From the IMG/VR virus record IMGVR_UViG_3300029305_006219: a stretch of DNA of 64,000 bases; one strand, written 5' to 3'. The stretch's first letter is position 1. Every line of letters begins with the position of its first letter. The notes beneath the pieces are model-generated. The model had not been told where the DNA came from. It ran no database searches and was given only the letters and a program-made list of their open reading frames with translations. This document shows, one piece after another, positions 3,507 through 21,399 of this stretch. The DNA is from a virus. The position numbers were made by a program, and so were the translations under genes.

Positions 3507-3574
3507 ATTTTTTGAAAAAAATCAATTAGAAAGCAAAAGGTGGTGATAATATAGCAGATAAGAAGTTAAATTTG

Positions 3575-3605
3575 ACTTTATTTTAATTTTATATTATAAT
3601 TAATA
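3575..3605 (+). promoter_or_regulatory. rightward promoter TTGACT-N17-TATAAT
   Basis: aaatTTGACTttattttaattttatatTATAAT lies upstream of the RBS aaaggaga and the GTG start at 3636. Confidence 0.5.
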
Positions 3606-3635: not shown

Positions 3636-4115
3636 GTGGAAATAATTGGATTAATTATTTTAATAGCTGGATTAATATTTATTGGATTTGACTATGGACG
3701 TATGTTAATTAAGAATCGGCGCCTATAGGCAAAATTAGGTGATGATTCGGCGCCTTACACACCTACAAGGAATATTATGGTAATGGATGAATATTGCCCT
3801 TATTTAGTTAAATTAACGACACTATGTATTAAAGCTCATGGAGATGCTAATATTAAAATTACAAAATATGATAGTAGTCAAGAGAATGTTGGTGTGATTA
3901 AAGTGTATTTTGATAATGATGATGAACTATTGGTTTATTAGTATGGTAAAGCAAAGATTAAAGAGTTAACAAATAGAGAAAAGAAGAATTATGCTAATAA
4001 AATTTTTCTTGACTATAAGTTACCAGAGGGTGCGGCCGGCGCAGTAATAAAAGATTTAGGATTAATGAATCACATGGTTTATTTCGGCTTTTGTGATGAA
4101 AGGAGTGTAAAATGA
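3636..4115 (+). CDS. membrane protein (about 159 aa, N-terminal TM helix) with 2 in-frame TAG codons
   Basis: GTG start after the RBS AGGAGA. The frame is open to the TGA at 4113-4115 when the two TAGs are read through. The ATGA overlap with the next gene suggests translational coupling. The gene is absent from the ORF track because of the TAGs. Confidence 0.5.
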
Positions 4116-4519
4116 GTAATTGGGCAAAAACAGGTGAAGCTTATTTTGGAGATTCTTTTGATAGAAAAATAACTCTTGGACCTGGGGAATTGAGTTTTAG
4201 CGCTAATAATTGCGTGATAGATCAAGATGCTTTATCTTCTATAGTAGGATATGATAGTGCTAATACTTATGCAATGGCAACTAGTTATGAAAAGCCAATA
4301 AGTATAGGCTACTGTGGAGATATAAGTGCTAAGGCAGATTCTGTTAGCGCTTTACAAGTGGATATTTCAGCAAGAGTAGATCAGCTTGAAGAGAAGCTTG
4401 ATACAGTAATGGCGCGCATTGATGAGTTAAAGCAGTCTGTTTCACGTACTTCAAGATTGCGTTCGTTATTAAGAACGTTGCATTATAATAGCGAAGTTGA
4501 AAGTGGCGCCAACTTTTGA
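4112..4519 (+). CDS. hypothetical coiled-coil protein (135 aa)
   Basis: ORF from the track with an RBS gaaaggag and no in-frame TAG. Confidence 0.55.
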   Translation: MSNWAKTGEAYFGDSFDRKITLGPGELSFSANNCVIDQDALSSIVGYDSANTYAMATSYEKPISIGYCGDISAKADSVSALQVDISARVDQLEEKLDTVMARIDELKQSVSRTSRLRSLLRTLHYNSEVESGANF

Positions 4520-4776
4520 TGTAAGCTGCTAAGGGTGCAGATTGGCGCATGAACCAACACGATTTTGCTACGATTTTAATTGAACTTGCTTTTGATAAAA
4601 GGCGGCATGACAACAGATTGTTGCAAAACTATTAAAGATGATGCGATAAGGAAAATATAGAAAAGAGTATATCGTCGAAAAATTGGCAAATTAAGGTAGT
4701 ATTATGGAAAAAATTTTGGACAAAAATAGATACAATTACTACCTTAATTTTTATATAATAGTGAAAGGAGTTAGTA

Positions 4777-4974
4777 ATGACTCGTGAAGAAATAATATTT
4801 TAGTTAAAGGAGATGCGCGCAAAAGGTTATACGTATAAGTTGATTGCGAAAGAGGCAAAATTAGATAATCCTGATTAGCTTTATAAGTTTATCAATAGAG
4901 ATGCTCCTGCTATTTGGGTGAAGCAGCAATTAGAGAACTATTTGCGCCGAGTAAACGGAAATGGGTCAAATTAA
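4777..4974 (+). CDS. small HTH-like protein (65 aa) with 2 in-frame TAG codons
   Basis: RBS gaaaggag plus ATG at 4777. With TAG read as sense the protein is MTREEIIF(Q)LKEMRAKGYTYKLIAKEAKLDNPD(Q)LYKF..., ending on TAA at 4972-4974. Confidence 0.4.
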
Positions 4975-5162
4975 AGAAAGAGTGATTTACACTCGAAAAA
5001 TGGCGTACGAATTACGCAAGTTGGGTTTTAAGATTATTAGAGTGATACCTGATGAGAAGAAACCTTATTTTGATAATTATGTATTTGAAGATAGTCTTGA
5101 GTTACAAGAGGCTATGCGCAAATTATCTTAGGTTTAAAATAAGGAATCGGAGGTATCGGATA

Positions 5163-5846
5163 ATGATTAAAGAATTTAAGAATAATCCTGTAAGAGATTT
5201 TGGTAACGTATATCAGACTATGTTGTCACAGATAAAAAAGAGATATGAGAAAGATCCTGTACAAGCTGGAGAATTAGCTATTAGTTTTATTGAATATGTA
5301 TTAACAGGTGATATTAGTAGTGACGATGATATTATTGAAGGCTTTGTTGAAGGATATAAGGTTACGACTAAAAAGAATCAAGATAAATATGATGCTAAGG
5401 TCGCTGCAACAAGAGACGCGCTAAAGCCAATTGCAGATATGTATAATAGGGGTATGACACAGGCGGCGATTGCGCGTGAGCTAGGTGTTCAGCCGCCCGC
5501 TATTTCAAAGAAAATGTCTACCATTCGTACACAGTTTCCAGAGTTGTTAGATAATGAAGGAAAATTAAAGAAAGTTTCCGAAAATTCTGGAAATAATGGA
5601 AAGTTTCCAAAAAATGAGGAAAGTATAGAAAAAGTTTCTGAAAATTCTGGAAATATTAAGAAAGAAGAAGAAAGTTTAGAAACGTTTCCAAGTTTCCAAA
5701 GTTTCCACAATAATAATAACTATAATAACAATAATAACTAGAATAATAATAATGAAGTTTCCATTTCGCCTCGCGGCGAGTCAGGGCTTCGCCCCGACAC
5801 CCCTGCGGCTTCGCCGATAAAGAAGATTGGAGGGTTTGAGTTTTGA
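5163..5846 (+). CDS. HTH DNA-binding protein (sigma-70 region-4 / ArpU-RinA-like helix-turn-helix), with a possible C-terminal extension past the TAG at 5739
   Basis: RBS ggaggt plus ATG at 5163. HTH motif GMTQAAIARELGVQPPAISKKMSTIR. The track ORF stops at the TAG at 5739-5741, and the frame then stays open to the TGA at 5844-5846. The 3' end is built from repeated KVSENSGN / GTTTCCA units. Confidence 0.5.
5571..5770. repeat. iteron-like direct repeats (A)AAGTTTCC(A/G)AAA, at least 7 copies including three tandem copies, followed by an AT-rich (AAT)n tract and a GC-rich segment
   Basis: aaagtttccgaaaa, aaagtttccaaaaa, aaagtttctgaaaa, cgtttccaa-gtttccaaa-gtttccacaa and agtttccattt, all inside the 3' end of the HTH gene. 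Confidence 0.5.
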
Positions 5847-6124
5847 GGGGAGTATATGTAATTGCTGATGATATGGGAAGAGTTTACTATGTGGGACAGA
5901 GTGAATAGTTGGAAAATAGAACATGGGGACATTTAGCTAAAATAAAACAAGATGAGAATAAATATAAGAAAAATAAATTATATTGGATATTGGGTAGATT
6001 GAATGATTTAAAAGTTGGGCTTCATTGTTATTTATTAGAAGAGTATCCGTCATGGAATAGAATCGATATTAAGACAAGAGAAAAAGAAAATATTCGATTG
6101 TTAAAACCTGTATTAAATACTTAG
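5843..6124 (+). CDS. small GIY-YIG nuclease (about 93 aa) containing 1 in-frame TAG
   Basis: RBS GGAGGG plus a TTG start. The motif GVYVIADDMGRVYYVGQSE(TAG)LENRTWGHL matches GIY...YIG...R...H. The TAG lies inside the conserved block, at a position that is D/N-like in I-TevI and UvrC. Confidence 0.55.
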
Positions 6125-6315
6125 GTTCCTACTGATTGCATTTGTTATATGAAGAATATTTGGAATGCGGTAACAGCGGCAGTTCAGGCAGATGAAAATG
6201 GAAGATGGGATTTTAAAGGATGTAGGAAAATATGGTGAAGATGTGGAGAAATTATAGTAGAGTGGAGAGTTGTCCTGCGACCGAATCCAGAACCACTTCC
6301 ACTCATCTCTCGTCT

Positions 6316-6350
6316 TCGTTATCCCTATTGATTTATAATAAAATATATGA
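6316..6350 (+). promoter_or_regulatory. promoter TTGATT-N17-TATAAT
   Basis: attgatttataataaaatatatgatataat lies upstream of the RBS and the ATG at 6391. Confidence 0.45.
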
Positions 6351-6390
6351 TATAATAATTATAGAAAATATAAGAAAGGAAATAATACCA

Positions 6391-6762
6391 ATGAATATTG
6401 AAGATATGATCATGAATGGTGCATCTGAAGAAGAGATTGCAGAAGCTATAGACCAGATTCGCGCCAAGAGAACCTTGAAAATGGAAGAAGAGCGTCAGGC
6501 GCGCGAATCTCAAAAGAAGAAAGATGAAGAGCAGACCGCGAAAGAGGCGCTTAAGGCAGAGGCTCGCGCGCATTTCATCAATGCTGTACTTGCATATAGT
6601 GAGGCTTTTGACCTTTTGGAAGAGGGAGAGAGCTGGACTGAAGAAGATCTAAAAGAGGTGGAAGAGTACCTTATTCAGATTGAAGGAATAATTCCTATGT
6701 ATGCTAAGATGATGAAGAAGAAAAAGGAATTCGGATTTGGAGATCTTTTTGGATTGATATAA
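6391..6762 (+). CDS. hypothetical acidic coiled-coil protein (about 123 aa)
   Basis: The most plausible start is the ATG at 6391 (RBS aagaaaggaa) inside track ORF 6232..6762. Confidence 0.5.
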   Translation: MNIEDMIMNGASEEEIAEAIDQIRAKRTLKMEEERQARESQKKKDEEQTAKEALKAEARAHFINAVLAYSEAFDLLEEGESWTEEDLKEVEEYLIQIEGIIPMYAKMMKKKKEFGFGDLFGLI

Positions 6763-6974
6763 GCGCCGGTCCAGGTTATAGAAGTATAAATATAGAGAAT
6801 AGAGCGTTGGGTAAAACCCGGCGCTCTTATTGTTTTACCTCTTGACGCGACGAAGGCGCATTGGCGCCGAGGAGCGAAAGTTAAAAATTTTTCAAAAGTA
6901 GATAATTGTATTACCTTAATTTTAATATAACAATGACAAAGAAATACATTGTCACTAAGAAAGATTGTAACGAA

Positions 6975-7040
6975 TTATTAAACTACTTAATTTTATAGTC
7001 ATTATAAAAGTCATTACAATCTTTCCAATACTAAAAGAAA
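6975..7040 (+). promoter_or_regulatory. structured 5' leader of the HTH regulator gene, with a 10-bp inverted repeat AAGATTGTAA...TTACAATCTT
   Basis: A perfect 10-bp inverted repeat separated by about 50 nt, together with the direct repeat tcattataaaag/tcattacaat, lies immediately upstream of the RBS and the GTG at 7055. Confidence 0.4.
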
Positions 7041-7054
7041 GGAGATGAATTATA

Positions 7055-7762
7055 GTGAAACTTGTTGAAGGTAAAATAACTTTAGCTAATTTGGCTACTT
7101 GGCTAGGAGTATCTGCAGGCACCCTGCGCAATAATAAAAGTAAGTATTTAAATATTTTAGCTCGCTATTGCCGATATCATGAAGAAGGAACTACCAAAAA
7201 GACTCTTTATATTGATGAAGTATACGAAGCAGAATATTCGGCGCTATAGGGTCCAAAACCTTATCAAAGAGTAAAAGAGTTAACAAGAGAGGGTTGGAGC
7301 GCAGAAGGGCTAGATAGTTGTGCTCTTGTTGCAAGTCGTAATTTTCCTATTCTATAGCAAGAGGGATACACAATTACAGAAAATACCAATTATAATTATA
7401 CTTGTTAGAGCAGAACGGAACTTTGGGGCAGTCCTATGAAGCGCACAAATGGTGAGCTTGGCTATTGTCGTTATGAGTATTGTAAAATTGGACCTTAGGG
7501 CAAGCTTGTTCCGCTTAATGAGGAAGAATAGAAGATTAAGCGCTAGATCACAGAGAAATACTTTGGTAATTTAGAAGATTTTACTCTTGGGATAGCTGAT
7601 GATATTAAAACTGGTAAGATTACTGCGGAAGAGGCTGGTATTGCATTAGCTAATTTAGGTAGTCATGGAGAATATTTAGCTTGGAAGAATGAACTTGAGG
7701 CTAGACTAGGTTGTAAGATTTATAAAGGAACAAGAATACATAATGAAGAGAGTGCGTTTTAA
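7055..7762 (+). CDS. Xre-like HTH transcriptional regulator (about 235 aa) with 6 in-frame TAG codons
   Basis: N-terminal HTH motif ITLANLATWLGVSAGTLRNNKSKYL. The track ORF ends at the TAG at 7247. The same frame then continues for about 170 codons with five more TAGs and no TAA/TGA until the TAA at 7760-7762. A terminator follows directly. Confidence 0.55.
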
Positions 7763-7777
7763 TGCGCACTCTTTTTG
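7749..7777 (+). terminator. intrinsic terminator
   Basis: Hairpin agagtgcg-ttttaat-cgcactct followed by TTTTT. Confidence 0.6.
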
Positions 7778-9232: not shown

Positions 9233-9703
9233 TCACCCCTCGGTAAAGTAGGTGTCAAATTCGCCTTTAGTTTTAAGCGATTCAAGACCTTTCTTCGTGT
9301 ATCTCGTCAAGTCAAGCTTAAAGTATTCACCGCCTTGCTTGAACACTATCATTTTACCCGCCTTGACGATTTTACAGTAGTCTGCATTTTCCGATATAGC
9401 GGTTTCGATTGCTTGGATAATTCCGTTCTTAGTTTTATCCTCTTTCACTACCCTCTCGCGCTGTGTCTTTTGCTTATACTCGGTTGATTTAGCTTTATGA
9501 ACCGTTGCGCTAACTCGATTCTCTTTAGCTTTTGCGGTGAGTGCTTGTTCTTCTTCGTTGTCGATATAATCGTTATCAAAGAGCCAAAGGTCAACCGCCT
9601 CTTGCCGTGAGCATTTAAGCATACGCATATTCAGCTCTATTGCCTCATTCGGTACTCGCACTGTGCGCCCGTTCTCAAGGGTATAAAGGCTATAATCTGC
9701 CAT
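9233..9703 (-). CDS. hypothetical protein (156 aa)
   Basis: Intact ORF with a TGA stop. A class-A promoter lies directly upstream. Confidence 0.55.
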   Translation of the reverse strand: MADYSLYTLENGRTVRVPNEAIELNMRMLKCSRQEAVDLWLFDNDYIDNEEEQALTAKAKENRVSATVHKAKSTEYKQKTQRERVVKEDKTKNGIIQAIETAISENADYCKIVKAGKMIVFKQGGEYFKLDLTRYTKKGLESLKTKGEFDTYFTEG

Positions 9704-9730
9704 TGGTTTTTACCTCTCTTTCTGTCCTCT

Positions 9731-9759
9731 TGACATATATATTATACCACACTCTTGGT
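9731..9759 (-). promoter_or_regulatory. early leftward promoter (class A: TTGACA-N17-TGgTATAAT plus an upstream A/T tract)
   Basis: The reverse complement reads cTTGACAaatgaccaagagtgtggTATAAT. On the minus strand an A-tract aaaaaatttttcaaaaac lies upstream of the -35. Confidence 0.55.
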
Positions 9760-9816
9760 CATTTGTCAAGAGGTTTGGTAAAAGTTTTTGAAAAATTTTT
9801 TTGGTATGAGGGAGAA

Positions 9817-10227
9817 TTACTCTCCCTCTACCTCGTCTACTACCCCGTAATTAAGGGAGTAGTATGCAACTTTCTTTTCAAGGGTGCGCTTAAAGTCTGC
9901 GCTCTTGGACACGATAGCGGTAATCATCTGTGACGATACGTTATCTCCGTTAGCTCTCTTATACTCTTTGATAGAATCGACCTTGAGGAGTGAGCCAACG
10001 GTCATTCCCTTTTCATCTACACACTCGGCGAGAGCGTCCTTGATAAGTTCGGTTACTGCGAGAGCGTCTTTCTGCGCAGGAGTGAGAGAAGCGGACTTTG
10101 AGTTCTTACGGGAGAGAAGCTCTATCTCGTGAGCCATAACATCTGCCCACTCGGTTTTGCCGTTCTCTATGAGGAACGCTTTGATGTTCTCAAAATTCTC
10201 TCTCTTGGTGATTTTCTTTTCTGCCAT
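9817..10227 (-). CDS. small protein, paralog family member 2 (136 aa)
   Basis: Similar in length and blocks to 1225..1614 and 10799..11203, e.g. ...SSQMITAIVSKSADFKRTLEKKVAYYSL. Confidence 0.55.
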   Translation of the reverse strand: MAEKKITKRENFENIKAFLIENGKTEWADVMAHEIELLSRKNSKSASLTPAQKDALAVTELIKDALAECVDEKGMTVGSLLKVDSIKEYKRANGDNVSSQMITAIVSKSADFKRTLEKKVAYYSLNYGVVDEVEGE

Positions 10228-10306
10228 AGTTTTCTACCTTTGCGATCTGTGACCGCCCTTTCAAAATTTTTTATTTCAAGAGGATTTTCCTCTTGATTAC
10301 ATATAT

Positions 10307-10335
10307 ATTATATCACAAGTTTGTGATTTTGTCAA
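10307..10335 (-). promoter_or_regulatory. early leftward promoter (class A)
   Basis: The minus strand reads TTGACA-N17-TATAAT (plus-strand attatatc...ttgtcaagggg). Confidence 0.5.
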
Positions 10336-10429
10336 GGGGTTTTTGAAAAGTTTTTCAAAAATTTTTTATTTTTTTCAGTGGTTGCAACTACGGGACGATG
10401 CCTCGCAAGGTCGTTCTATCCGTCACCGC

Positions 10430-10476
10430 CCCTTGACTACGATAATATTATATCATAAAAAGATAAATTTGTCAAT
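10430..10476 (-). promoter_or_regulatory. early leftward promoter (class B, with upstream TGCACAA operators)
   Basis: The minus strand reads TTGACAaatttatctttttatgaTATAAT. It lies about 80 nt upstream of the class-A promoter, a tandem arrangement. Confidence 0.45.
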
Positions 10477-10491
10477 AGAAAATGGGAAAAT

Positions 10492-10545
10492 AATTTGCAC
10501 AAATTTGAGAGGAATTTTGGTGAGAAAATTGTGCAACTTGCACAA
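10492..10545. promoter_or_regulatory. operator-like palindromes AATTTGCACAAATT and TTGTGCAAcTTGCACAA
   Basis: A perfect 8-1-8 inverted repeat at 10529-10545. The same 17-mer recurs at 12857-12873 and 16958-16974, and related half-sites occur upstream of other class-B promoters. Confidence 0.5.
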
Positions 10546-10557
10546 AAACGCACAAAT

Positions 10558-10625
10558 CGGCCCAGCGGCGGCCGCCGTTGGGCCGGTCAAAAAAAGACCT
10601 CTGCCGTCGCAGAGGTCTATCCTCG
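10558..10625 (-). terminator. tandem terminator: a GC-rich palindrome plus a hairpin with T7
   Basis: ggcccagcggcggccgccgttgggcc, then hairpin agacctctg..cagaggtct followed on the minus strand by T7. Confidence 0.5.
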
Positions 10626-10798
10626 AGGTTGACCATTCTCGCTTTCTCGCCACTCCTTGCGCATAGGGGACTTTGGTTTTAATGGTCTGCAAAGGCGTGT
10701 GATTTGAACACACATCTGTTGGAAACGAAACCAACTGTTCTTCCATTAAACTACCCTTTGTTATGTATGAGGGGCGCATTTGCGCCCCTGTGCCTCAC

Positions 10799-11203
10799 TC
10801 ACGCAAGGCGAAAGTAAGTGACCTTTTTGTCAATGGTCTTGACTACATCACCGCAGTCAACGAGCTTTTTAAGCATAGAGGAAACTCGCTGTGAAGATGT
10901 TTCCTTACCATCTGCCCACTCAAACTCTGCGATACGAGAATCCTTTGCTATCGCACCGCACTGCATACCCTTTACATCGGTTGCTTCTGCGAGAACATCA
11001 TGAATGAGGTCAAGGAAAGTATCAACTTCCTCTGCGCGCTTTGCGCTGACCTTACCACTCTTGCTTTCAAGCTGACCGAGCTTCTTTTCGGCAAACTCGA
11101 TTACTTTATCCATAGGGATTGTGGTCGGCTCTCCGCTTGCCATCTTGATGATTTCCTCATACATCTGCTTCTGTGTGTACTTGATTTCCTTGATTTCTGC
11201 CAT
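10799..11203 (-). CDS. small protein, paralog family member 3 (134 aa)
   Basis: Third member of the family, e.g. ...SSQRVSSMLKKLVDCGDVVKTIDKKVTYFRLA. TGA stop. Confidence 0.55.
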   Translation of the reverse strand: MAEIKEIKYTQKQMYEEIIKMASGEPTTIPMDKVIEFAEKKLGQLESKSGKVSAKRAEEVDTFLDLIHDVLAEATDVKGMQCGAIAKDSRIAEFEWADGKETSSQRVSSMLKKLVDCGDVVKTIDKKVTYFRLA

Positions 11204-11354
11204 AATTTTTTTCCTCTCTTGCTATTAGGTTGCAACCCTTTAATTTTATTTATCAGAGGTATTCCCTCTTGATTACATATATATTATACCATACTTTTTG
11301 GTATTTGTCAATAGGTTTTTGAAAAATTTTTTATTTTTTTTCTTGGGTAGAGGG

Positions 11355-12074
11355 TTATTCACCCTCTACCTCTTTGCGCTTATGAAAGGGATATACCCAT
11401 TCACCCTCTGGAGTTAAGCAACCGAGTTTCGTGCGCTCTTGGAAGATATTACAACCTCTTTTTCCAAGTTCACAAAGAATACGGAGTTCCCATTGAACAT
11501 CGGAAAGTGCGGTATGTTCCTCAACAAAATCTTTATCTTGGTTAAGAAATGCGGTTACACCCTCAACAGAGGTCGGTATATATTTACCACTTGGAGTGCG
11601 GAGTTCGTGTTCGTTGCAAAATGCGATATAATCTGCGGTAGAGCATATGTCGTATTGTGCATTACACCATATATCTATAACCTCGATTTTGTCAAGTGGA
11701 TTCAAAATACCGAGCGCAGTTGCGGTTCTGCGGAATTTGTCCTCGTCAAACTCGGAGTTATAGGCAAAGCCATACTGTATGCCATATCGGTCAATATCTC
11801 TTGCTATTTGCTCAAATATCTGTTTTTCGGTACGGAGTATTGCCGTTCCGTTCTCAACATTCAAGTCAAACTTTGCGAGTTTTTCTGCTTTGACGAACAT
11901 ATCATTCAAGAGCCAAATGCGGTTGTGATAATGTTTGCCTACAAGATAGTCTTTGCCTTTGAGTATCTTATACTTAAAGGTTGTTAAGTCAACATCTGCT
12001 ATACAATAGCCTATGTTAAGTAGTGTTTGGGTACAACACCCTGCGGTTTCGGTATCAAATACCATAATGTTCAT
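11355..12074 (-). CDS. DEDDh-family 3'-5' exonuclease (DnaQ / RNase T-like), 239 aa
   Basis: Exo I motif MVFDTETAG, a later FDxxF block and the Exo III motif H-TALSDVQWE. Intact ORF with a TAA stop. Confidence 0.7.
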   Translation of the reverse strand: MNIMVFDTETAGCCTQTLLNIGYCIADVDLTTFKYKILKGKDYLVGKHYHNRIWLLNDMFVKAEKLAKFDLNVENGTAILRTEKQIFEQIARDIDRYGIQYGFAYNSEFDEDKFRRTATALGILNPLDKIEVIDIWCNAQYDICSTADYIAFCNEHELRTPSGKYIPTSVEGVTAFLNQDKDFVEEHTALSDVQWELRILCELGKRGCNIFQERTKLGCLTPEGEWVYPFHKRKEVEGE

Positions 12075-12159
12075 TTTTTCTTTTCCTCTCTTTCTGTCAT
12101 AGGGAGTAGCCCTCGCTCTCCACTCGACATATATATTATATCACATCTTGACGAATTTG

Positions 12160-12606
12160 TCAAGAGGTTTTACAAAATTTTTTCAAAATTTCAAAAATTT
12201 TTTCGGGCGGAAATGCGTCACCCTTAGTCCACTCAAGGCGGTTGCGCTCTTCATCGTCAAACAGTATGCCCTCACTCTTGGCTACGGACGATTTGGGTGT
12301 GCCATATGGAACGATATGCAATTCATCAAAAATAACGGACTTCAAGTGCTTTTTGAGCCATTTGCGCTTGGCTTTAGTGACCGCCTTGTTATAGTCCTCA
12401 GTTGCGGCTTTAGACAGCCACGATATAACACCTATATGAACGCCATTGCGCTGAGCCTTATTCAATGCTCTTGCAAGTGCAGACATATTGTGCATAGGTC
12501 TTGCTTCTTCATATGGGCGCGTTCGCTTGGCTTCAAGGTCATCGAGCCAGCCTTCGACCGCATAAAGGTCAGCAACGGTGCCGTCAAGGTCTAAATAAAT
12601 TGTCAT
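12160..12606 (-). CDS. HAD-superfamily 5'(3')-deoxyribonucleotidase-like phosphatase (NT5C-like), 148 aa
   Basis: HAD motif I LDLDGTVADL at the N-terminus. Size and layout are typical of phage NT5C-like enzymes. Confidence 0.6.
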   Translation of the reverse strand: MTIYLDLDGTVADLYAVEGWLDDLEAKRTRPYEEARPMHNMSALARALNKAQRNGVHIGVISWLSKAATEDYNKAVTKAKRKWLKKHLKSVIFDELHIVPYGTPKSSVAKSEGILFDDEERNRLEWTKGDAFPPEKIFEILKKFCKTS

Positions 12607-12640
12607 TTGGTTTAGTTCCTTTCTTCCTTACTGCTCTTAT

Positions 12641-12669
12641 ATTATACCATACTTTGAGCGATTTGTCAA
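12641..12669 (-). promoter_or_regulatory. early leftward promoter (class A)
   Basis: Plus-strand attatacc...ttgtcaagggg with a 17-nt spacer. A second, class-B promoter lies at about 12745-12795. Confidence 0.5.
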
Positions 12670-12856
12670 GGGGTTTTTGAAAAATTTTTTCAAAAATTTT
12701 TGAGTGTCCACTGATTAGCAAGTCCATTTCACTGCTTTTGTTTCTCACCCCTTGACTACGATAATATTATACCACAAAGGGCGCAAAAAGTCAAGCGGTT
12801 TTGGGAATTTTCTTTTCGTCAATTTGCACAAACTTTTGGCGAAAAAATGCGTGGAA

Positions 12857-12935
12857 TTGTGCAATTTGCACAAAAACGGCGCCACACCGATCGGTGGCGC
12901 GCCGACCAAAAAGAGGGAGATTAATCTCCCTCTAT
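12857..12935 (-). promoter_or_regulatory. regulatory/insulator cassette: TTGTGCAAtTTGCACAA, then the GC palindrome ggcgccaCACCGATCGGTGgcgcgcc, then a terminator hairpin
   Basis: Same element order as at 10492-10625. The terminator hairpin agagggagattaatctccctct overlaps the TAA stop of gene 12921..13130. Confidence 0.5.
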
Positions 12936-13130
12936 TATGATTTTATTGATAACTTTTGCATAGTCTTCTTGCGCTCTTCGGAATGCTTGTGCCGCAGTAT
13001 GCAAAGGGCATTCTTCGCAATCAATTTCGCCGCACTGTATATGAATGCAGGGGTCAATCATTATAGCTTCAAGAGTGTCGTGCTGTTCTGTTGCGGTTAT
13101 TGTGACTATGATTTTCATATTTACCTCCAA
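12921..13130 (-). CDS. small Cys-containing protein (69 aa)
   Basis: ORF from the track with a TAA stop. Confidence 0.45.
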   Translation of the reverse strand: MEVNMKIIVTITATEQHDTLEAIMIDPCIHIQCGEIDCEECPLHTAAQAFRRAQEDYAKVINKIIIEGD

Positions 13131-13381
13131 ATTAAATTGATAAGATAATAAGTATTCATCGCAAATAATGCGACATTAAGTATTACAAGATTTATGCGCC
13201 TTGCGCTAAAGCAAAATGCGGTTGCGATTGCCGAGCCGATGAAGAATAATACTGTCATATCGGCGCCACACATAACACCTATTGCGCAAGCGGTATAGAT
13301 TAGTGCGGTGATATCGGTGATATCAAATTCATAGGGGCGGTCAAGGCTGAAATAGGTTTTTAGTTTACCAATCAAAGTCAT
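13121..13381 (-). CDS. small membrane protein (86 aa)
   Basis: Two hydrophobic segments. TAA stop. Confidence 0.5.
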   Translation of the reverse strand: MTLIGKLKTYFSLDRPYEFDITDITALIYTACAIGVMCGADMTVLFFIGSAIATAFCFSARRINLVILNVALFAMNTYYLINLIWR

Positions 13382-13553
13382 CTACCTCTTCTTCCTCATA
13401 ATCATTAGTATAATAATATTGCGTGGTTTTGAACTCTTTACCACAACCGCATTTATATTTGCGACTTGCGACAATTTGCTCTCCGTCCTCTTCATATTTT
13501 GCCGATAAATATTTAACTTGGGCGGTGCTACCGCAATTTGGACATTTAATCAT
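13365..13553 (-). CDS. small zinc-ribbon protein (62 aa)
   Basis: CPNCG...CGCGKEF motifs. Confidence 0.5.
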   Translation of the reverse strand: MIKCPNCGSTAQVKYLSAKYEEDGEQIVASRKYKCGCGKEFKTTQYYYTNDYEEEEVDDFDW

Positions 13554-13753
13554 TTTAATTTAAGCTCCTTTCTAATATTGATAATTCCACGAAATTCTGC
13601 GGTATAGATTGCTTCACAGTGAGGGCAACAAACTTTAGCCTCAAAATCTGCTTCATACCCGTCAAAATTCCATATCTTTGCATCCACATCTCCACAGAAC
13701 AAGTCATCTCTGGTTATAAGTTTATCGCAATTTGGGCATTTAATCATTTTCAA
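13550..13753 (-). CDS. small zinc-ribbon protein (67 aa)
   Basis: CPNC...CCPHC motifs. Confidence 0.5.
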   Translation of the reverse strand: MKMIKCPNCDKLITRDDLFCGDVDAKIWNFDGYEADFEAKVCCPHCEAIYTAEFRGIINIRKELKLK

Positions 13754-13945
13754 ATTCTCCTTGATATTCTCTTATTGTGCAATATCCACTCCAACGCCAT
13801 TCAAGGCATTGTTGATTGATATATTCTTGTGCCTGTTCTTGACTATCAAAGATAGGCGGTTTATTATCTCCTATGAATCCTTTATGCAAGAAGCCGTTTG
13901 GACAAGAGCGAGTATGAATATAAATTACATATTGCATAAGTATTA
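13740..13945 (-). CDS. small protein (about 68 aa); the longer track ORF 13740..14273 is rejected because it runs through the tRNA
   Basis: An internal ATG with RBS aagaggtaatacttATG lies just downstream of the tRNA. Upstream of it, the ORF translates tRNA and promoter DNA (..GSIPIRF.. matches the T-arm). Confidence 0.35.
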
Positions 13946-13957
13946 CCTCTCTTTTTT

Positions 13958-14032
13958 TGGTGAAGCGAATGGGAATTGAACCCACAACGCAGTTGAATAG
14001 TGTCAACCTCATTACCTTTGTGATACCGCTTC
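13958..14032 (-). tRNA. tRNA with CTA in the anticodon loop: candidate amber (UAG) suppressor tRNA
   Basis: Minus-strand sequence GAAGCGGTATCACAAAGGTAATGAGGTTGACACTATTCAACTGCGTTGTGGGTTCAATTCCCATTCGCTTCACCA. The 7-bp acceptor stem has one G.U pair. U8, A14 and GG are in the D-loop. The T-arm is GTGGG/CCCAT with loop TTCAATT. CCA is encoded. The anticodon stem GTTGA/TCAAC is perfect but the loop CACTAT has 6 nt, which is atypical, so the fold needs software confirmation. Confidence 0.6.
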
Positions 14033-14045
14033 TTATTACATTTAT

Positions 14046-14074
14046 ATTATACCATATAATCTTGCTTTTGTCAA
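14046..14074 (-). promoter_or_regulatory. consensus promoter driving the tRNA (TTGACA-N17-TGgTATAAT)
   Basis: The reverse complement reads cTTGACAaaagcaagattatatggTATAAT. The predicted transcription start is about 7 nt before the tRNA 5' end. Confidence 0.55.
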
Positions 14075-14217
14075 GAGGTTTTCGAAAAATATTTGCAACT
14101 ATTTTTCTTATCTCCGATACTTTCCTACTCAAAGCTTTCGTGTCCGTTCTCTTGTTGTACACCAAGTTTCTGATTTCCATTCCTTGCAAGTTAATTTCTC
14201 CGCACGAGGTTCCCCCT

Positions 14218-14258
14218 CTTGACATTATTATTATATCATACAATCGGGAAAATGTCAA
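14218..14258 (-). promoter_or_regulatory. second (class-B) promoter upstream of the tRNA
   Basis: The reverse complement reads cTTGACAttttcccgattgtatgaTATAAT. TGCACAA-type sites lie at 14275-14319, a GC palindrome at 14321-14347 and a terminator at about 14350-14385 further upstream. Confidence 0.5.
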
Positions 14259-14461
14259 GTGGTAATGTTGCACAAAGTTTCAACAAAAAAATGGCGGGAA
14301 GTGTACAAAATGCACAAAACGGAACGCGCCGGCCGGGCTCGTTCCGCTCGGATTTCAGGCAAAAAAGAAAAAACCCAGAACTCATGAAAAGCTCTGGAAA
14401 TTTGTTGAGAGGTCTACTTCGTGGAAATTCGGACTTGGCGCGACCGCCTTCGTCCGTCAGC

Positions 14462-14764
14462 TTAATGGCTGAAGTGTTTCAACACGTCTTGTACATTGTA
14501 CTCATTTTCATCATCACTCATAATTATAATTTTATTTTCCCATTCAGCAGGAATGCTTAAAATTTTAAATGTTTCCTTTAAGAATGAAATCATATTCGTA
14601 CAATCATTTTTTTGATTGTCAGAATGAAAGAGAAGGGCGCCCAACTCTTCACAATAAAGTGCATGAAGTGGATAGTCTTGCGCCGAGAGGGTTTCCCAAT
14701 CAAGGGGAGTAAGTGATGATTCAAAAGAAGTGATGACAAGAGCGTGGATGAAGTGATACTTCAT
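14462..14764 (-). CDS. hypothetical protein (100 aa)
   Basis: ORF from the track with a TAA stop. Confidence 0.5.
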   Translation of the reverse strand: MKYHFIHALVITSFESSLTPLDWETLSAQDYPLHALYCEELGALLFHSDNQKNDCTNMISFLKETFKILSIPAEWENKIIIMSDDENEYNVQDVLKHFSH

Positions 14765-14846
14765 ACCGCGTGACCTCCTTGTATCTCTTATTTCTTTTTA
14801 CATTTATATTATAATATAAAATTTTATAAAAATCAATGGGTGTGGA

Positions 14847-15055
14847 TTATTCCACACCCAAGAGTTCCTTTATTTTATTGACTACTTGCTCTTGTGCTTG
14901 TTTCAGAATGTAATAATCACAATTATCAAGTGTTGCAATATAATCATCTACCGCTATGCGGATTTCAATTTCATTACTATTATGATTAAGATCATACTCC
15001 TTAATGATTTCTTTTTCATTGATTTCTACGCCCGTAGTAATCTCTATATACATAT
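14847..15055 (-). CDS. small protein (about 68 aa, starting MYIEITTGVEINEKE)
   Basis: A strong RBS aaaaggagaaaacaatATG lies inside track ORF 14847..15173. A class-A promoter at 15386-15414 serves the operon. Confidence 0.45.
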
Positions 15056-15096
15056 TGTTTTCTCCTTTTGCGAATTTCCAAATTTTTCCAATGCGC

Positions 15097-15354
15097 CTAC
15101 CAAGCGACTCGGATATGATATCTACCTTCAAAAAGGTTTTTTTCAATCTCAGCCTTGTAGCCAAATTTTTCAAGATTCGCTCTTATGAGTTCGACCTCAT
15201 CTTTGGAAACCTCTTTTACTCCACTGAAATAACCTTGTGAAGCCCTTTTTTTGATGAAGCGCAACATCTCTTTCATTGCCCACGAATGCATGAATTGGTT
15301 TTGATTATTTTCTGCCATCTCTCTTGCTTCCTTTGCGGTCATAGGGTTTTTCAT
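15097..15354 (-). CDS. hypothetical protein (85 aa); the only early gene found that ends on TAG
   Basis: The stop codon is cta on the plus strand at 15097-15099, which is TAG on the minus strand. The frame stays open for about 22 more codons. Confidence 0.5.
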   Translation of the reverse strand: MKNPMTAKEAREMAENNQNQFMHSWAMKEMLRFIKKRASQGYFSGVKEVSKDEVELIRANLEKFGYKAEIEKNLFEGRYHIRVAW

Positions 15355-15428
15355 AAGTATTTCCTCTCTTTCTTTTAGTATATATATTATACCATACTTT
15401 TATATATTTGTCAAGTAGTTTTTGAAAA

Positions 15429-15653
15429 TTATTTGAAAAAAATTTCAAGCACAATTACATCGTCGCAACAACCCTCAATAGTTATTTCCATACTATCTAT
15501 CTTGCGGTTAGCATACTCTTTAATATGCTCACATTCTTTAACATACCAATCGATTGATTGAGCACCAAGCCATTGTTCTGCTTTGAGTAAGAAGTTGTCA
15601 TAAATGCGGATTTTATCTATGTTGTAGATAAGCGGAAGTTGTGCAAGTGTCAT
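15429..15653 (-). CDS. hypothetical protein (74 aa)
   Basis: RBS AGAGAGG. A class-B promoter lies at 15686-15714. Confidence 0.5.
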   Translation of the reverse strand: MTLAQLPLIYNIDKIRIYDNFLLKAEQWLGAQSIDWYVKECEHIKEYANRKIDSMEITIEGCCDDVIVLEIFFK

Positions 15654-15832
15654 AAGTCATTTTCCTCTCTTTCTTTTACACTTATATTATACCACAAATA
15701 TCGGGAATTGTCAATAGGTAATAATCAACAAAGTTTTGCGCCGATTTTTGTGCAAAATGCCAGCCCACAGATAAAACGGCTCGGCGCGCCCGATGCCGAG
15801 CCGCCAAAAAACAAAAGAGGGCAATCGCCCTC

Positions 15833-16213
15833 TTAGGTTTGATATTTAGTTATCTCTGTGGAAGAGCTTTGCGCCACCATTAGCGAAATACACCTTTGCA
15901 TTGTATCGAGTTCAACCACTCTGATGACTTTGCCTTTAGCATACGCATATCCGCACTCCCAAGCTGATCCAAGGTCACCATTGGCGCCTTCGCAAAAATA
16001 GAGAATTTCATCACATTCATCTATTGCTTGAACGTCGTGTTGGAATACCTTGCGCGCCCATTCGGAGTTAGGTAAAGCTTTAGCATTAGGTATCTCTAAT
16101 TCGTGGGGAACGTAAACTTTATATCCTAACTGTCGTAAGAGTTTTGCGTGCTTGTTTATTCTGTCCTTTTGGCTTTCGGTAAACATAGCACTTGCTATAT
16201 AAAACTTTTTCAT
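15833..16213 (-). CDS. nucleoside 2-deoxyribosyltransferase-like protein (NDT / Rcl-DNPH1 fold), 126 aa
   Basis: N-terminal FYIASAMFTE and catalytic-region DLGSAWECGYAYAKGKVI match the NDT family pattern (YxAGxxF ... D.G...E.GyA.a.gK). Confidence 0.55.
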   Translation of the reverse strand: MKKFYIASAMFTESQKDRINKHAKLLRQLGYKVYVPHELEIPNAKALPNSEWARKVFQHDVQAIDECDEILYFCEGANGDLGSAWECGYAYAKGKVIRVVELDTMQRCISLMVAQSSSTEITKYQT

Positions 16214-16238
16214 ATCTCACCTCTTGATAGTGGATAGA

Positions 16239-16457
16239 TTATTCATCTATCCACTCTTTTACTTTATAGGCTGTAACCTCGACAATATCAGCGGTGAATT
16301 TTATCTCTCCCGTAAAGTTATAGATTACGTAAGTATTACCTCTGTTATTTGTCGTAAACTCTCTTGCAAACTGAATTGCCATACTAAGATCGTCAAAATC
16401 AGCAATATGTTTGCCGTCCGCATAGACGCCATAGTCAAGAATGTCAAATTTTACCAT
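16239..16457 (-). CDS. hypothetical protein (72 aa)
   Basis: RBS AAGGAAGG. A class-B promoter lies at about 16486-16522, directly preceded by ATTTTGCACAAAATT. Confidence 0.5.
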   Translation of the reverse strand: MVKFDILDYGVYADGKHIADFDDLSMAIQFAREFTTNNRGNTYVIYNFTGEIKFTADIVEVTAYKVKEWIDE

Positions 16458-16555
16458 AATATTAATACCTTCCTTCCTTTACTGTGCCTATATTATATCA
16501 TATTACTTGCCTCTTGTCAATAGGCATTTTGCACAAAATTTTGCGGCGGGTCTTG

Positions 16556-16864
16556 TTAACAATATACAAGACCCATATCACGCCAACGGAGAATAGAAAT
16601 TTGAGAGCAGGCGCGCCCGACCTCAAGCGCTTTTTTCAAGGTACTTTCGCGATGGCTCTTGTCTATGTAATAAACTCCAGAACTATACCATATACCACAG
16701 TTGCCTTCGTATGCCTTAACGGCGTTGATTGCTTCGCGCGGGTCACGGGTTTCGATACCTTCGGTGGCTACTTGGTAGCCTGTTTTGAACGTGACGCGCT
16801 GACCCTTTTTGAGAGTTAAGCCGTCATTATCTTTAAGTTTGAGAATCGAGCGAATGTTAATCAT
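16556..16864 (-). CDS. hypothetical protein (102 aa)
   Basis: A class-B promoter at about 16895-16925, with TTGTGCAAcTTGCACAA at 16958-16974 upstream of it. Confidence 0.5.
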   Translation of the reverse strand: MINIRSILKLKDNDGLTLKKGQRVTFKTGYQVATEGIETRDPREAINAVKAYEGNCGIWYSSGVYYIDKSHRESTLKKALEVGRACSQISILRWRDMGLVYC

Positions 16865-20167: not shown

Positions 20168-20196
20168 TTGACATAGTAAAAATTTTTTGGTATAAT
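20168..20196 (+). promoter_or_regulatory. consensus sigma-70 promoter at the head of the rightward structural operon (TTGACA-N17-TATAAT)
   Basis: ctcTTGACAtagtaaaaattttttggTATAATttat, then the RBS aaaggag and the ATG at 20227. Confidence 0.6.
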
Positions 20197-20226: not shown

Positions 20227-21399
20227 ATGGATACATTACAAACTTTAGACGACCTTTTGTCTGATGAGGATTTAGATATTGAAGACTCTTCTGAACAAGA
20301 GGAAGAAAATATAGAAGAGAAAATTATCACTGAAGATATTGCGCAAACTATAAAATTAGATTATAAGTTAGCTACCTGCGAAGAGCGCTCGGCGTTGGTT
20401 AATAAGATTATAGCCCAAACCCCTGCCGCCTCTTTAACAAATCGTTATTTAGAAATTTTAGGCGATTATATTATGGGAGGTATCACAAAAGAAGAACGTA
20501 AATCGCACCTATACCTTACTGACAATAGAATGATTACTGTTGCAAGGCGCGAAACGTCTTTTGAAGGTTTGGCAGAAAAATTTGAAAATGGAGAAGATGG
20601 TATTTATAATTTAATGACAAATGATAAAAATATTATCTTTGCACCAAAAAATACAATCACTGAAGAAGATATAGAAAATGTTCCTGGTCTTAAGCAATTG
20701 CGCGAGGCTATTATTCAAATTGAAGAGGAGGGGAAACGTGCTATAGGAAAGCGCAAATACCTTCTCAAAAAGCAACTCATAGAAATGCGTAAAGACCAAT
20801 ATATCTTAAAGAATTCATATTAGGCCCCCATGGTTTGCACTCCTTGTGCAAAAGGAGCAAATAAAATTGATTTAAGTGAAAAAAAATATGTAGATGAAAA
20901 TGGAGATCCACAAAGCACAGGTTTAATTTCTTTTTTTAAACCAGAGCATATTCAAGCAATTTTAAATAATTATAATGCTTTAAAAATAGAGACTAAAGGT
21001 AAATATTCTAGTGACTTTTTTTATTTGATGGAAGATTTTGATAAATTATTACATAAGGCATTAGATAATTATCCTATGTATTTTGATATTGTAAAAATGA
21101 AAGTAAATGGAAAAACAAATATTGAAATTCAAAAAATGTTAAAAGAAAAACATAATACAAGTTTTACTGTGTAGTACATTTCCAGTCTATGGTGTAAAAA
21201 AATTCCTAAAATTATAGCTGAGAAAGAACAGCATGACTTCTTAATCTGGTATTATCGTAATGAACAAAAAGGCCCATGGAAGCGTTGCTCTTGTTGTAAA
21301 GAATTTAAACCAGCTAATTCGCGCTTTTTCTCTAAGAATCGCACAAGTAAAGATGGATTTTATAGCATTTGCAAAATGTGCCGCAATAAGAAAAAATAA
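20227..21399 (+). CDS. hypothetical protein (about 390 aa, 2 in-frame TAG) with an acidic N-terminus and a C-terminal CxxC..CxxC motif
   Basis: Track ORFs 20227..20823 and 20830..21174 plus a further segment share frame 1. They are separated only by TAG codons and end on TAA at 21397-21399. Confidence 0.5.

What the first reader, a model, noticed from the sequence alone, without database searches (positions are those of the whole stretch)
3636..7762. Transcription regulators themselves contain TAG codons, suggesting a translation-gated regulatory cascade
In the rightward module at 3.6 to 7.8 kb, the Xre-like HTH regulator (6 TAG), a small HTH protein (2 TAG), the sigma-region-4/ArpU-like HTH protein (TAG before its C-terminal tail) and a membrane protein (2 TAG) all need suppression. 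Genes 4112..4519 and 6391..6762 do not. Regulators that can only be completed once the suppressor tRNA accumulates would act as a built-in timer or checkpoint linking early and late programs. The HTH domain of the Xre-like protein (residues 1 to 64) lies entirely before its first TAG. Without suppression a truncated, DNA-binding-only form could therefore be made, with a different activity from the full-length protein.
Basis: inference. Interest (0 to 1): 0.7.

Follow-up and report, generated by a model that had tools for sequence, protein, structure and literature searches.

The report
TAG-as-glutamine genes in a recoded phage
The in-frame TAG codons in these small phage genes are real glutamine codons, as expected in a phage that reads TAG as sense in its later-expressed genes, but there is no good evidence that they form a special regulator-based timer or produce a purposeful truncated DNA-binding protein.

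Summary
The sequence facts hold: every TAG count and coordinate is correct, and the TAGs are sense codons. Orthologues continue past them and carry CAA/CAG (Gln) at the same columns.

The window is part of a ~135-kb SPbeta/EF1-like phage that reads TAG as Gln. TAG makes up 0/107 Gln codons in the early minus-strand genes, 204/638 in the late block and 14/41 in this module, so the module looks late-like.

- "Xre-like" and "ArpU-like" are not confirmed. The first protein has winged-helix folds of unknown function. The second is a DUF6291/HTH-type protein.
- TAG positions are not conserved. The first TAG of the 7055 family falls at codon 2, 18, 20 or 33 in four of eight relatives, which argues against a designed DNA-binding-only truncation.
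- The DUF6291/HTH gene has no TAG in two of three orthologues.
- The TAG-bearing units at 4777 and 7055 carry a promoter-like motif that also occurs upstream of late genes. The TAG-free gene 6391 has a conserved host-type promoter.

No canonical suppressor tRNA was found. An early tRNA-like gene with CUA in a 6-nt loop is an untested candidate.

Verdict: an ordinary instance of known late-gene recoding.

The parts
3572..3600 (+). Host sigma-A/sigma-70-type promoter-like site, TTGACT-N17-TATAAT, upstream of 3636-4115
   Evidence: 11 of 12 consensus matches. The same TTGACT-N17-TATAAT site is conserved upstream of the orthologue in 5 of 5 genomes.
3636..4115 (+). 159-aa protein with a hydrophobic N-terminal segment (probable single-pass membrane protein). 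TAG at codons 31 and 102.
   Evidence: Translation. No significant family hit. Orthologues carry 1, 1, 1 and 0 TAG.
4112..4519 (+). 135-aa protein with a coiled-coil C-terminus, TAG-free. Its start overlaps the stop of the previous gene (ATGA).
   Evidence: Orthologues are TAG-free in L001, L003, L007 and L020: 0 of about 22 Gln codons.
4719..4758 (+). 'Class B' promoter-like motif, GACAAAA-N~22-TTTTTATATA, upstream of the 4777-6238 gene string
   Evidence: Repeat families D6/D8/D13. Similar motif upstream of late genes 21481, 24519, 36829, 51760, 55610, 59931 and 61336. Present at the same place in L007 and L001.
4777..4974 (+). 65-aa protein with a weak HTH signal. TAG at codons 9 and 34.
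   Evidence: Pfam HTH_28 at 15.6 bits, below the cut-off of 25. Translation.
4961..5137 (+). 58-aa DUF5659-like protein. TAG (5129-5131) is the penultimate codon, followed by GTT then TAA.
   Evidence: Pfam DUF5659 at 19.7 bits, below the cut-off of 23.6. Translation. Positional analogues in L007 and L020 have a mid-gene TAG.
5163..5846 (+). Single TAG at codon 193 (5739-5741) in an Asn-rich linker, followed by a conserved C-terminal motif.
   Evidence: Only sub-threshold HTH hits. No NCBIfam hit. Profile hit to PDB 2lvs at E = 8e-6 plus weak HTH regulators. 206 homologues; the tail SISPxGESGLRPDTPxASP..KFxF is conserved down to 42% identity. Orthologues in L007 and L020 have 0 TAG.
5843..6238 (+). 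131-aa GIY-YIG nuclease-domain protein. TAG at codons 22 and 94.
   Evidence: Pfam GIY-YIG at 29.3 bits, above the cut-off of 22.6.
6328..6356 (+). Sigma-A-type promoter-like site with extended -10 (TTGATT-N17-TGnTATAAT), upstream of TAG-free gene 6391-6762
   Evidence: The same arrangement is conserved in 5 of 5 genomes.
6391..6762 (+). 123-aa acidic protein, TAG-free
   Evidence: Six orthologues are all TAG-free: 0 of 23 Gln codons in all, P about 1e-4 at the window's late-gene TAG share.
6801..6837 (+). Intrinsic-terminator-like hairpin plus T-run after 6391-6762
6893..6930 (+). 'Class B' promoter-like motif, about 125 nt upstream of 7055-7762
   Evidence: Conserved upstream of the orthologue in 7 of 7 genomes.
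6940..7054 (+). Long 5' leader with two inverted repeats. The long-range helix pairs 6962-6972 with 7012-7022.
   Evidence: RNAalifold on 7 orthologues: 11 pairs, each with at least one compensatory double change. It could instead be a pair of DNA operator half-sites.
7055..7762 (+). TAG at codons 65, 101, 118, 148, 159 and 164.
7744..7777 (+). Intrinsic-terminator-like hairpin plus T-run closing the module
13961..14032 (-). tRNA-like gene in the TAG-free early block, with a 6-nt anticodon loop CACUAU that contains CUA. Candidate non-canonical amber suppressor, unproven.
   Evidence: Rfam tRNA at 38.9 bits, above the gathering score of 29. Sequence. Identical in three other assemblies. ARAGORN reports it only at a lowered threshold.
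14046..14074 (-). Consensus sigma-A promoter (TTGACA-N17-TGGTATAAT) directly upstream of the tRNA-like gene
20168..20196 (+). Consensus sigma-A promoter (TTGACA-N17-TGGTATAAT) upstream of the first gene of the late block
   Evidence: Conserved in L015 and in MT836163.
20227..21399 (+). 390-aa protein named 'sigma factor' in PHROGs and in GenBank records of relatives (unverified). TAG at codons 199 and 316.

Best explanation
The window is part of a ~135-kb SPbeta/EF1-like phage, probably of a Firmicutes host, that reads TAG as glutamine (genetic code 15) in part of its genes.

The genome has two coding regimes:
- Early regime: small minus-strand genes, each behind a near-consensus host sigma-A promoter, with no TAG at all.
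- Recoded regime: the virion/late block, with TAG as about one third of all Gln codons.

The 3.6-7.8 kb rightward module is a mosaic of four transcription units whose layout is conserved in relatives:
- Two units have host-type promoters: 3636-4519, and the TAG-free 6391-6762.
- Two units (4777-6238 and 7055-7762) sit behind a 'class B' motif that also lies upstream of late genes.

The TAGs in the putative DNA-binding proteins are ordinary Gln codons of genes in the recoded, later-expressed class. They drift in number and position between relatives.

Inferred consequence: like all recoded genes, these cannot be completed until TAG decoding is available. This is a property of the whole class, not a dedicated regulator checkpoint.

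Shown: TAG is a sense codon and most often corresponds to Gln; the two-regime partition; TAG positions are not conserved; the promoter-like motifs are conserved.
Inferred: the timing, the function of the class B motif, and the source of suppression.
For: Recoding:
- ORF coverage is 0.47 under the standard code and 0.87 with TAG as sense.
- Terminase, portal and the 3142-aa ORF are restored when TAG is read through.

Partition:
- TAG share of Gln codons is 0/107 (early), 14/41 (this module) and 204/638 (late). Module versus early, p = 2e-9. Module versus late, p = 0.86.
- The same partition is seen in relatives L001 (28 minus-strand genes, 3474 codons, 1 TAG) and L015.

TAG corresponds to Gln.

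Non-conserved TAG sites.

Promoters:
- At least 15 TTGACA-N17-TGnTATAAT sites lie on the minus strand.
- Host-type promoters are conserved upstream of 3636-like and 6391-like genes in 5 of 5 genomes.
- The class B motif lies upstream of 4777, 7055 and many late genes. It is conserved upstream of the 7055 orthologue in 7 of 7 genomes.

Lineage:
- The window is identical to JGI contig Ga0318466_10002543 (135,189 bp) over 11,128 bases.
- YonG/YonD/YonB/YomX Pfam families are found in a relative. Enterococcus phage EF1-type relatives are found by protein search.

Literature:
- Stop-codon recoding as a post-transcriptional block on late genes has been proposed (bioRxiv 10.1101/2021.08.26.457843).
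- In-frame TAG content changes over years within a phage population (bioRxiv 10.1101/2023.08.07.552389).
Against: - No expression data exist. 'Early' and 'late' rest on promoter-like motifs and gene content.
- The class B motif is degenerate. The core TTTTWATATA has 9 matches against 4.1 expected.
- No canonical tRNA-Sup(CUA), RF2 or aminoacyl-tRNA synthetase was found in the window or in the 10 kb to its left. The means of TAG decoding is therefore not shown. About 61 kb of the genome could not be read.
- Two genes with host-type promoters do contain TAG (3636-4115 and 20227-21399), so promoter class does not fully predict TAG use.
- The 7055 family is always TAG-rich, and in the window it lies above the late-gene mean (6/8 versus 204/638, p = 0.017). 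This leaves room for selection on that gene.
Confidence: 0.7

Rival explanations
1. The TAGs in DNA-binding proteins are a selected checkpoint. The regulators are transcribed but completed only once a suppressor tRNA has accumulated, which couples the early and late programmes. The 7055 protein also yields a functional truncated DNA-binding form that ends at codon 64.
For: - All eight 7055-type genes carry 2-7 TAG, and the window copy lies above the late-gene mean.
- Two genes with conserved host-type promoters contain TAG: 3636-4115, and the 'sigma factor'-annotated 20227-21399 at the head of the late block.
- A tRNA-like gene containing CUA sits behind its own consensus early promoter.
Against: - The first TAG falls inside the N-terminal domain in 4 of 8 relatives (codons 2, 18, 20 and 33), so no conserved truncated isoform exists.
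- The DUF6291/HTH gene is TAG-poor: 1 of 29 Gln codons across three genomes.
- The module's TAG share equals the late-gene background.
- The named genes carry the late-type promoter-like motif.
- Regulator identity is unproven.
- The 20227 orthologue in the weakly recoded MT836163 has 0 TAG.
Confidence: 0.12
2. TAG content reflects expression level and mutational drift, not timing. TAG is decoded inefficiently, so it is purged from genes that need high or immediate output. It drifts in freely in low-abundance proteins such as small DNA-binding proteins, nucleases and tail proteins.
For: - Inside the recoded late block, several structural or scaffold-type genes, probably among the most abundant virion proteins, have 0 TAG (26540-27901, 28465-29517, 33363-34286, 53967-55481). 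Large tail-type genes have 44-65% TAG.
- TAG sites differ between close relatives, and TAG alternates with its single-step neighbours Lys, Glu and Tyr as well as Gln.
- TAG counts change within years in other phages.
Against: - The complete absence of TAG from 29 early genes (0/107 Gln codons) and the same pattern in relatives is sharper than an expression gradient would predict.
- Small early genes are unlikely all to be highly expressed.
- This reading is compatible with, rather than exclusive of, the best explanation.
Confidence: 0.25
3. The TAGs are genuine stops, and the genes are fragmented or decaying.
For: Under the standard code the ORFs are short, and no canonical suppressor tRNA was detected in the sequence available.
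Against: - Protein sequence after the TAGs is strongly conserved. In the 7055 family, 29 invariant columns are spread over the whole length. In the 5163 family, a C-terminal motif is conserved down to 42% identity.
- TAG alternates with CAA/CAG.
- Essential terminase and portal genes also carry 8 TAG each.
- No homologue ends at a TAG position.
Confidence: 0.01

Closest known systems
Stop-codon recoding (code 15, TAG to Gln) in gut phages as a post-transcriptional block on late and lysis genes (Borges et al., bioRxiv 10.1101/2021.08.26.457843; crAss-like, Lak, Agate and other clades)
   Same: - Standard-code-compatible early genes alongside recoded structural genes.
- TAG corresponds to Gln.
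- TAG is essentially absent as a stop codon.
- A nuclease gene of a homing-endonuclease type (GIY-YIG) is recoded.
- Suppressor tRNAs are not detected in many such genomes.
   Different: - Here the recoded set also includes small putative DNA-binding proteins in a separate rightward module.
- That paper stresses lysis and structural genes and does not discuss recoded transcription factors.
- No canonical suppressor tRNA was seen in the 74 kb examined.
phAss-1 / proposed Phassvirus and the Enterococcus phage EF1 group (PMC10607447); Bacillus prophage SPbeta
   Same: - Genomes of about 135 kb with large tRNA sets.
- TAG-interrupted terminase, portal and tail genes.
- Probable Clostridia or other Firmicutes hosts.
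- SPbeta-type virion gene families (YonG, YonD, YonB, YomX).
- EF1-type protein relatives at 27-51% identity.
   Different: - No nucleotide similarity to any GenBank phage record, apart from one 261-base match to an unverified metagenome clone.
- phAss-1 has three canonical tRNA-Sup(CTA) genes; none was found here.
[quoted passage not shown] No YonO-sized gene lies in this window.
bldA tRNA-Leu(UAA) and TTA-containing regulatory genes in Streptomyces (from my own knowledge, not tested here)
   Different: - In Streptomyces the rare codon is conserved in specific regulators such as adpA, and the tRNA dependence has been shown genetically.
- Here the TAG sites are not conserved. One putative regulator family is TAG-poor. 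The decoding tRNA is unidentified.
Programmed stop-codon readthrough isoforms (Qbeta A1 protein, retroviral gag-pol; from my own knowledge)
   Same: The idea that one gene gives a short form ending at a stop codon and a long readthrough form, each with a different activity.
   Different: Those systems have a fixed, conserved stop at a domain boundary. In the 7055 family the first TAG moves between codon 2 and codon 79.

Membership tests
Code-15 (TAG to Gln) recoded phage | Coding density and essential genes are restored when TAG is read as sense | tested here: met
   ORF coverage rises from 0.47 to 0.87. Terminase, portal and the 3142-aa ORF are restored.
Code-15 (TAG to Gln) recoded phage | In-frame TAG aligns with Gln in homologues | tested here: met
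   TAG alternates with CAA/CAG in the same columns of the 7055 family. 9 of 31 residues opposite TAG in the standard-code phage EF1 are Gln, against a 4% background (p = 3e-6).
Code-15 (TAG to Gln) recoded phage | A standard-code-compatible gene set next to a recoded set | tested here: met
   0/107 versus 204/638 TAG among Gln codons. The same pattern holds in L001 and L015.
Code-15 (TAG to Gln) recoded phage | Phage-encoded suppressor tRNA with anticodon CUA (found in about 40% of such genomes, so typical rather than obligatory) | tested here: inconclusive
   No canonical tRNA-Sup in the window or in L009. A tRNA-like gene at 13961-14032 has CUA in a 6-nt loop.
Xre / Cro-C1-type HTH regulators (Pfam HTH_3 and relatives) | Significant match to an Xre-type HTH profile, or the five-helix Cro/C1 fold | tested here: not met
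ArpU family phage transcriptional regulators / sigma-70 region 4 | Match to the ArpU model (NCBIfam) or to Sigma70_r4 (Pfam) at or above the curated cut-off | tested here: not met
   For 5163-5846: no NCBIfam hit. The best Pfam hit is HTH_38 at 19.5 bits, below 27. No Sigma70_r4 hit.
DUF6291 + HTH phage proteins | Pfam PF19808 in the N-terminal half followed by an HTH | tested here: inconclusive
   The query scores 15.5 bits, below the cut-off of 27.2. PF19808 and PF13936 are on record for several homologues. The profile hits PDB 2lvs at E = 8e-6 and weak HTH regulators.
GIY-YIG nucleases | Pfam GIY-YIG catalytic domain above the cut-off | tested here: met
   For 5843-6238: 29.3 bits, above 22.6.
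Bacterial or phage sigma factors (for 20227-21399) | Sigma region 2 and region 4 domains, or a sigma fold | tested here: not met
Programmed truncated/readthrough isoform genes | A stop codon at a conserved position at a domain boundary | tested here: not met
   The first TAG lies at codon 65, 79, 65, 20, 76, 2, 33 and 18 in eight genomes.

The most novel reading that the evidence does not exclude
A true translation gate may sit on a few genes that are transcribed early but contain TAG. The candidates are the membrane protein 3636-4115 and the 'sigma factor'-annotated 20227-21399 that heads the late block. The always TAG-rich 7055 protein with its structured leader may be a further candidate, although it lies behind the late-type motif rather than a host-type promoter.

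In this reading a non-canonical tRNA-like RNA (13961-14032, CUA in a 6-nt loop) is made from its own consensus early promoter and acts as the accumulating decoder. Class B (late) transcription would then start only after the genetic code of the cell has been switched.
Probability: 0.15. Interest if true: 0.65.

Novelty: new member of a known kind. Interest (0 to 1): 0.3.

Why it matters
That would be a viral counterpart of bldA/TTA control in Streptomyces.

The evidence instead shows an ordinary consequence of a phenomenon already described. In a TAG-recoded phage, genes outside the early set carry TAG-Gln codons, and these drift between relatives.

Three things are useful here:
- A clean, conserved map linking promoter type to codon regime in a little-studied ~135-kb phage group.
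- Two better candidates for translational gating: genes with host-type promoters that contain TAG.
- An odd early tRNA-like gene that could bear on the open question of how phages without a recognisable suppressor tRNA decode TAG.

Tried and rejected
- Nucleotide searches of the module and of 24 kb of the late block against GenBank phages found nothing useful.
- An IMG/VR scan with the 7055 protein found no relative.
- BFVD fold search of the 7055-family model gave no informative match.
- The AFDB50 library was unavailable.
The 94%-identical database protein P0001 was used instead.
- I looked for a canonical tRNA-Sup(CUA) with ARAGORN at several thresholds, with the intron option, and with Rfam. 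I searched the window, the 10 kb to its left and eight related loci. None was found.
- The tRNA-like gene 13961-14032 shows no particular similarity to the phage's own tRNA-Gln(UUG). No orthologue was found in the related loci held, and GenBank phages gave no useful match.
- I considered an assembly error as the cause of the 6-nt loop and rejected it. The sequence is identical in three other assemblies.
- A strict regular expression for the class B motif recovers only some of the sites seen by eye, so the motif is reported as putative.
- I considered TAGs as true stops and rejected it (see rivals).

Full report
**What is there**

The region 3636-7762 holds eight plus-strand genes:

| Gene | Size | TAG codons | Note |
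|---|---|---|---|
| 3636-4115 | 159 aa | 31, 102 | hydrophobic N-terminus |
| 4112-4519 | 135 aa | none | |
| 4777-4974 | 65 aa | 9, 34 | |
| 4961-5137 | 58 aa | penultimate codon | |
| 5163-5846 | 227 aa | 193 | |
| 5843-6238 | 131 aa | 22, 94 | GIY-YIG |
| 6391-6762 | 123 aa | none | |
| 7055-7762 | 235 aa | 65, 101, 118, 148, 159, 164 | |

It overlooked the GIY-YIG gene and the 58-aa gene.

**The phage is TAG-recoded**

- With TAG as a stop, ORFs of at least 100 aa cover 0.47 of the window. With TAG as sense they cover 0.87.
- The plus-strand block from 20.2 kb onward holds terminase (8 TAG), portal (8 TAG), a 3142-aa ORF (82 TAG) and other virion genes.
- The window is identical over 11,128 bases to a 135,189-bp JGI metagenome contig.
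- Relatives carry SPbeta-type virion families YonG, YonD, YonB and YomX.
- The closest cultured relatives by protein are Enterococcus phages of the EF1 type, about 140 kb.
- There is no nucleotide similarity to GenBank phages, apart from one 261-base match to an unverified metagenome clone.

**The TAGs are sense codons, most likely Gln**

- The 7055 protein has 14 full-length homologues of 235-248 aa, with 29 invariant columns spread over the whole length.
- I fetched the DNA of six orthologues. Each has 2-5 TAG at its own positions. Columns that hold TAG in one genome hold CAA/CAG-Gln in others, for example columns 76, 106, 164 and 169.
- The 5163 family has 206 homologues. The tail after the window's TAG (SISPxGESGLRPDTPxASP..KFxF) is conserved down to 42% identity.
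- Against the standard-code phage EF1, 9 of 31 residues opposite window TAGs are Gln, versus a 4% background (p = 3e-6).

**Two coding regimes**

| Gene set | TAG among Gln codons |
|---|---|
| 29 early minus-strand genes | 0/107 |
| This module | 14/41 (0.34) |
| Late block | 204/638 (0.32) |

- Module versus early gives p = 2e-9. Module versus late gives p = 0.86.
- The same partition holds in relatives. L001 has 28 minus-strand genes, 3474 codons and 1 TAG. L015 shows the same.
- Within the late block, several structural or scaffold-type genes (probably among the most abundant virion proteins) have no TAG, while large tail-type genes reach 44-65%.

**Promoter-like motifs**

- The early minus-strand genes each sit behind a near-perfect TTGACA-N17-TGnTATAAT site. 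There are at least 15 copies.
- Within the module:
  - 3636-4519 follows TTGACT-N17-TATAAT (3572-3600).
  - The TAG-free 6391-6762 follows TTGATT-N17-TGnTATAAT (6328-6356).
  - Both are conserved in five of five genomes.
- The units 4777-6238 and 7055-7762 follow a different motif, roughly GGACAAAA-N~22-TTTTWATATAA.
  - The same motif lies upstream of late genes at 21481, 24519, 36829, 51760, 55610, 59931 and 61336.
  - It is conserved upstream of the 7055 orthologue in seven of seven genomes, and upstream of the middle operon in three genomes.
- That this motif is a later-acting promoter is an inference. Its core occurs only about twice as often as expected.

**Are these regulators?**

- *5163-5846.* It shows only sub-threshold HTH matches, no ArpU model hit and no sigma region 4. 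Its family profile hits one uncharacterised PDB entry (2lvs) and weak HTH regulators. Homologues carry DUF6291 and HTH_38 on record.
- *4777-4974.* It has only a weak HTH_28 signal.

**Is TAG use in them a design?**

Comparison across relatives:

| Gene family | TAG use in relatives |
|---|---|
| 7055-type | 2-7 TAG in all eight genomes |
| 6391 | TAG-free in seven genomes (0 of 23 Gln codons) |
| 4112 | TAG-free (0 of about 22 Gln codons) |
| 5163 | 1 TAG in the window, 0 in L007 (89% identity) and L020 (79%): 1 of 29 Gln codons |

- In the 7055-type gene the first TAG lies at codon 65, 79, 65, 20, 76, 2, 33 and 18. It is inside the N-terminal domain in four of the eight genomes.
- The window's TAG in the 5163 gene sits in an Asn-rich linker where relatives have Tyr or Lys.
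- So which genes avoid TAG is conserved, but the sites are not. A conserved truncated DNA-binding form of the 7055 protein is not supported.
- The window's 7055 gene is somewhat TAG-richer than the late mean (6/8; p = 0.017), though within the range of tail genes.

**Source of suppression**

- No canonical tRNA-Sup(CUA) was found in the window, in the 10 kb to its left (which holds a tRNA array including tRNA-Gln UUG), or in the related loci.
- The early block holds two tRNA-like genes with abnormal anticodon loops:
  - 10689-10760 has an 8-nt loop.
  - 13961-14032 has a 6-nt loop, CACUAU, that contains CUA. It lies directly behind its own consensus promoter. Its sequence is identical in three other assemblies.
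- Whether the second one decodes TAG is unknown. Borges et al. note that non-canonical suppressor tRNAs may escape detection.
- About 61 kb of the genome could not be read.

**Conclusion**

The TAG codons are an instance of the known recoding of non-early genes in code-15 phages.
- The specific cascade and truncated-isoform ideas are not supported by comparative evidence.
- If translational gating of particular genes exists here, the better candidates are genes with conserved host-type promoters that still contain TAG. These are 3636-4115 and the first late-block gene 20227-21399.
- The 20227-21399 gene has a consensus promoter conserved in three genomes, with TAG counts of 2, 1 and 0. Its 'sigma factor' name is unverified.

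Noticed in passing
window 13961-14032 (-), promoter 14046-14074 (-); window 10689-10760 (-): Two tRNA-like genes with non-standard anticodon loops lie in the TAG-free early block. One has a 6-nt loop, CACUAU, that contains CUA, and sits behind its own consensus sigma-A promoter. The other has an 8-nt loop, UUUCGUUU. The orthologue of the second in L001 (13360-13430) has a different loop, GUAGUA. L003 (18953-19025) has another tRNA-like gene with an 8-nt loop. The first is identical in three independent assemblies.
   Followed up: partly
L009 13945-19943 (the 10 kb left of the window): A tRNA array of 12 or more genes, including tRNA-Gln(UUG) but no CUA suppressor. Several Rfam tRNA hits are 100-151 nt long, with insertions of about 78-171 nt after the anticodon (for example L009 19030-19180). 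One insertion itself contains a T-arm-like segment.
   Followed up: partly
window 9700-17650, minus strand (also 1664-1791): At least 15 near-perfect TTGACA-N17-TGnTATAAT promoters, about one per small early gene. They are embedded in an 88-105-nt repeat that also includes a conserved upstream segment (TTTGTCAAGAGGTTTTTGAAAAATTTTT on the plus strand).
   Followed up: partly
window 6940-7054: The ~115-nt leader of gene 7055 has a hairpin right after the class B motif. It also has a long-range helix (6962-6972 with 7012-7022) whose 11 pairs all show compensatory changes across seven orthologues. This could be an RNA leader structure or paired DNA operator half-sites.
   Followed up: partly
window 62027-62223 (+): Group I intron-like match (Rfam RF00028, 45.8 bits, just below the gathering score of 50, E = 2e-8). 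It starts within the 3' end of the ORF called at 61336-62136 and runs into the gap before 62367. GIY-YIG and NUMOD3 homing-endonuclease-type genes occur in this genome and its relatives.
   Followed up: no
window 26540-27901, 28465-29517, 33363-34286, 53967-55481: Several structural or scaffold-type genes, probably among the most abundant virion proteins, have no TAG at all although they lie inside the recoded late block. Large tail-type genes use TAG for 44-65% of Gln codons. This suggests TAG is avoided where high output is needed.
   Followed up: partly
window 5742-5843 (C-terminus of 5163-5846): A conserved C-terminal motif, SISPxGESGLRPDTPxASP..KFxF, follows a variable Asn-rich linker. 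It is kept down to 42% identity in a family of more than 200 phage proteins. Its function is unknown; it may be a docking peptide.
   Followed up: no
window 20168-21399: The first gene of the late block is named 'sigma factor' in PHROGs and GenBank. It belongs to a family of more than 5000 proteins. A consensus host-type promoter is conserved in three genomes, and the gene ends in a Cys-rich zinc-ribbon-like tail. No sigma domain or fold could be confirmed.
   Followed up: partly
window 15097-15354 (-): This is the only early-block ORF that ends at a TAG under the standard code. Read-through would add 26 codons and overlap the next ORF. It may be the one place where TAG acts as a true stop.
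   Followed up: no
L003 18012-18655; L015 5386-5730; L008 6125-6559: Early regions of related phages carry toxin-antitoxin-type genes: PemK toxin, MazE antitoxin and DUF8033.
   Followed up: no
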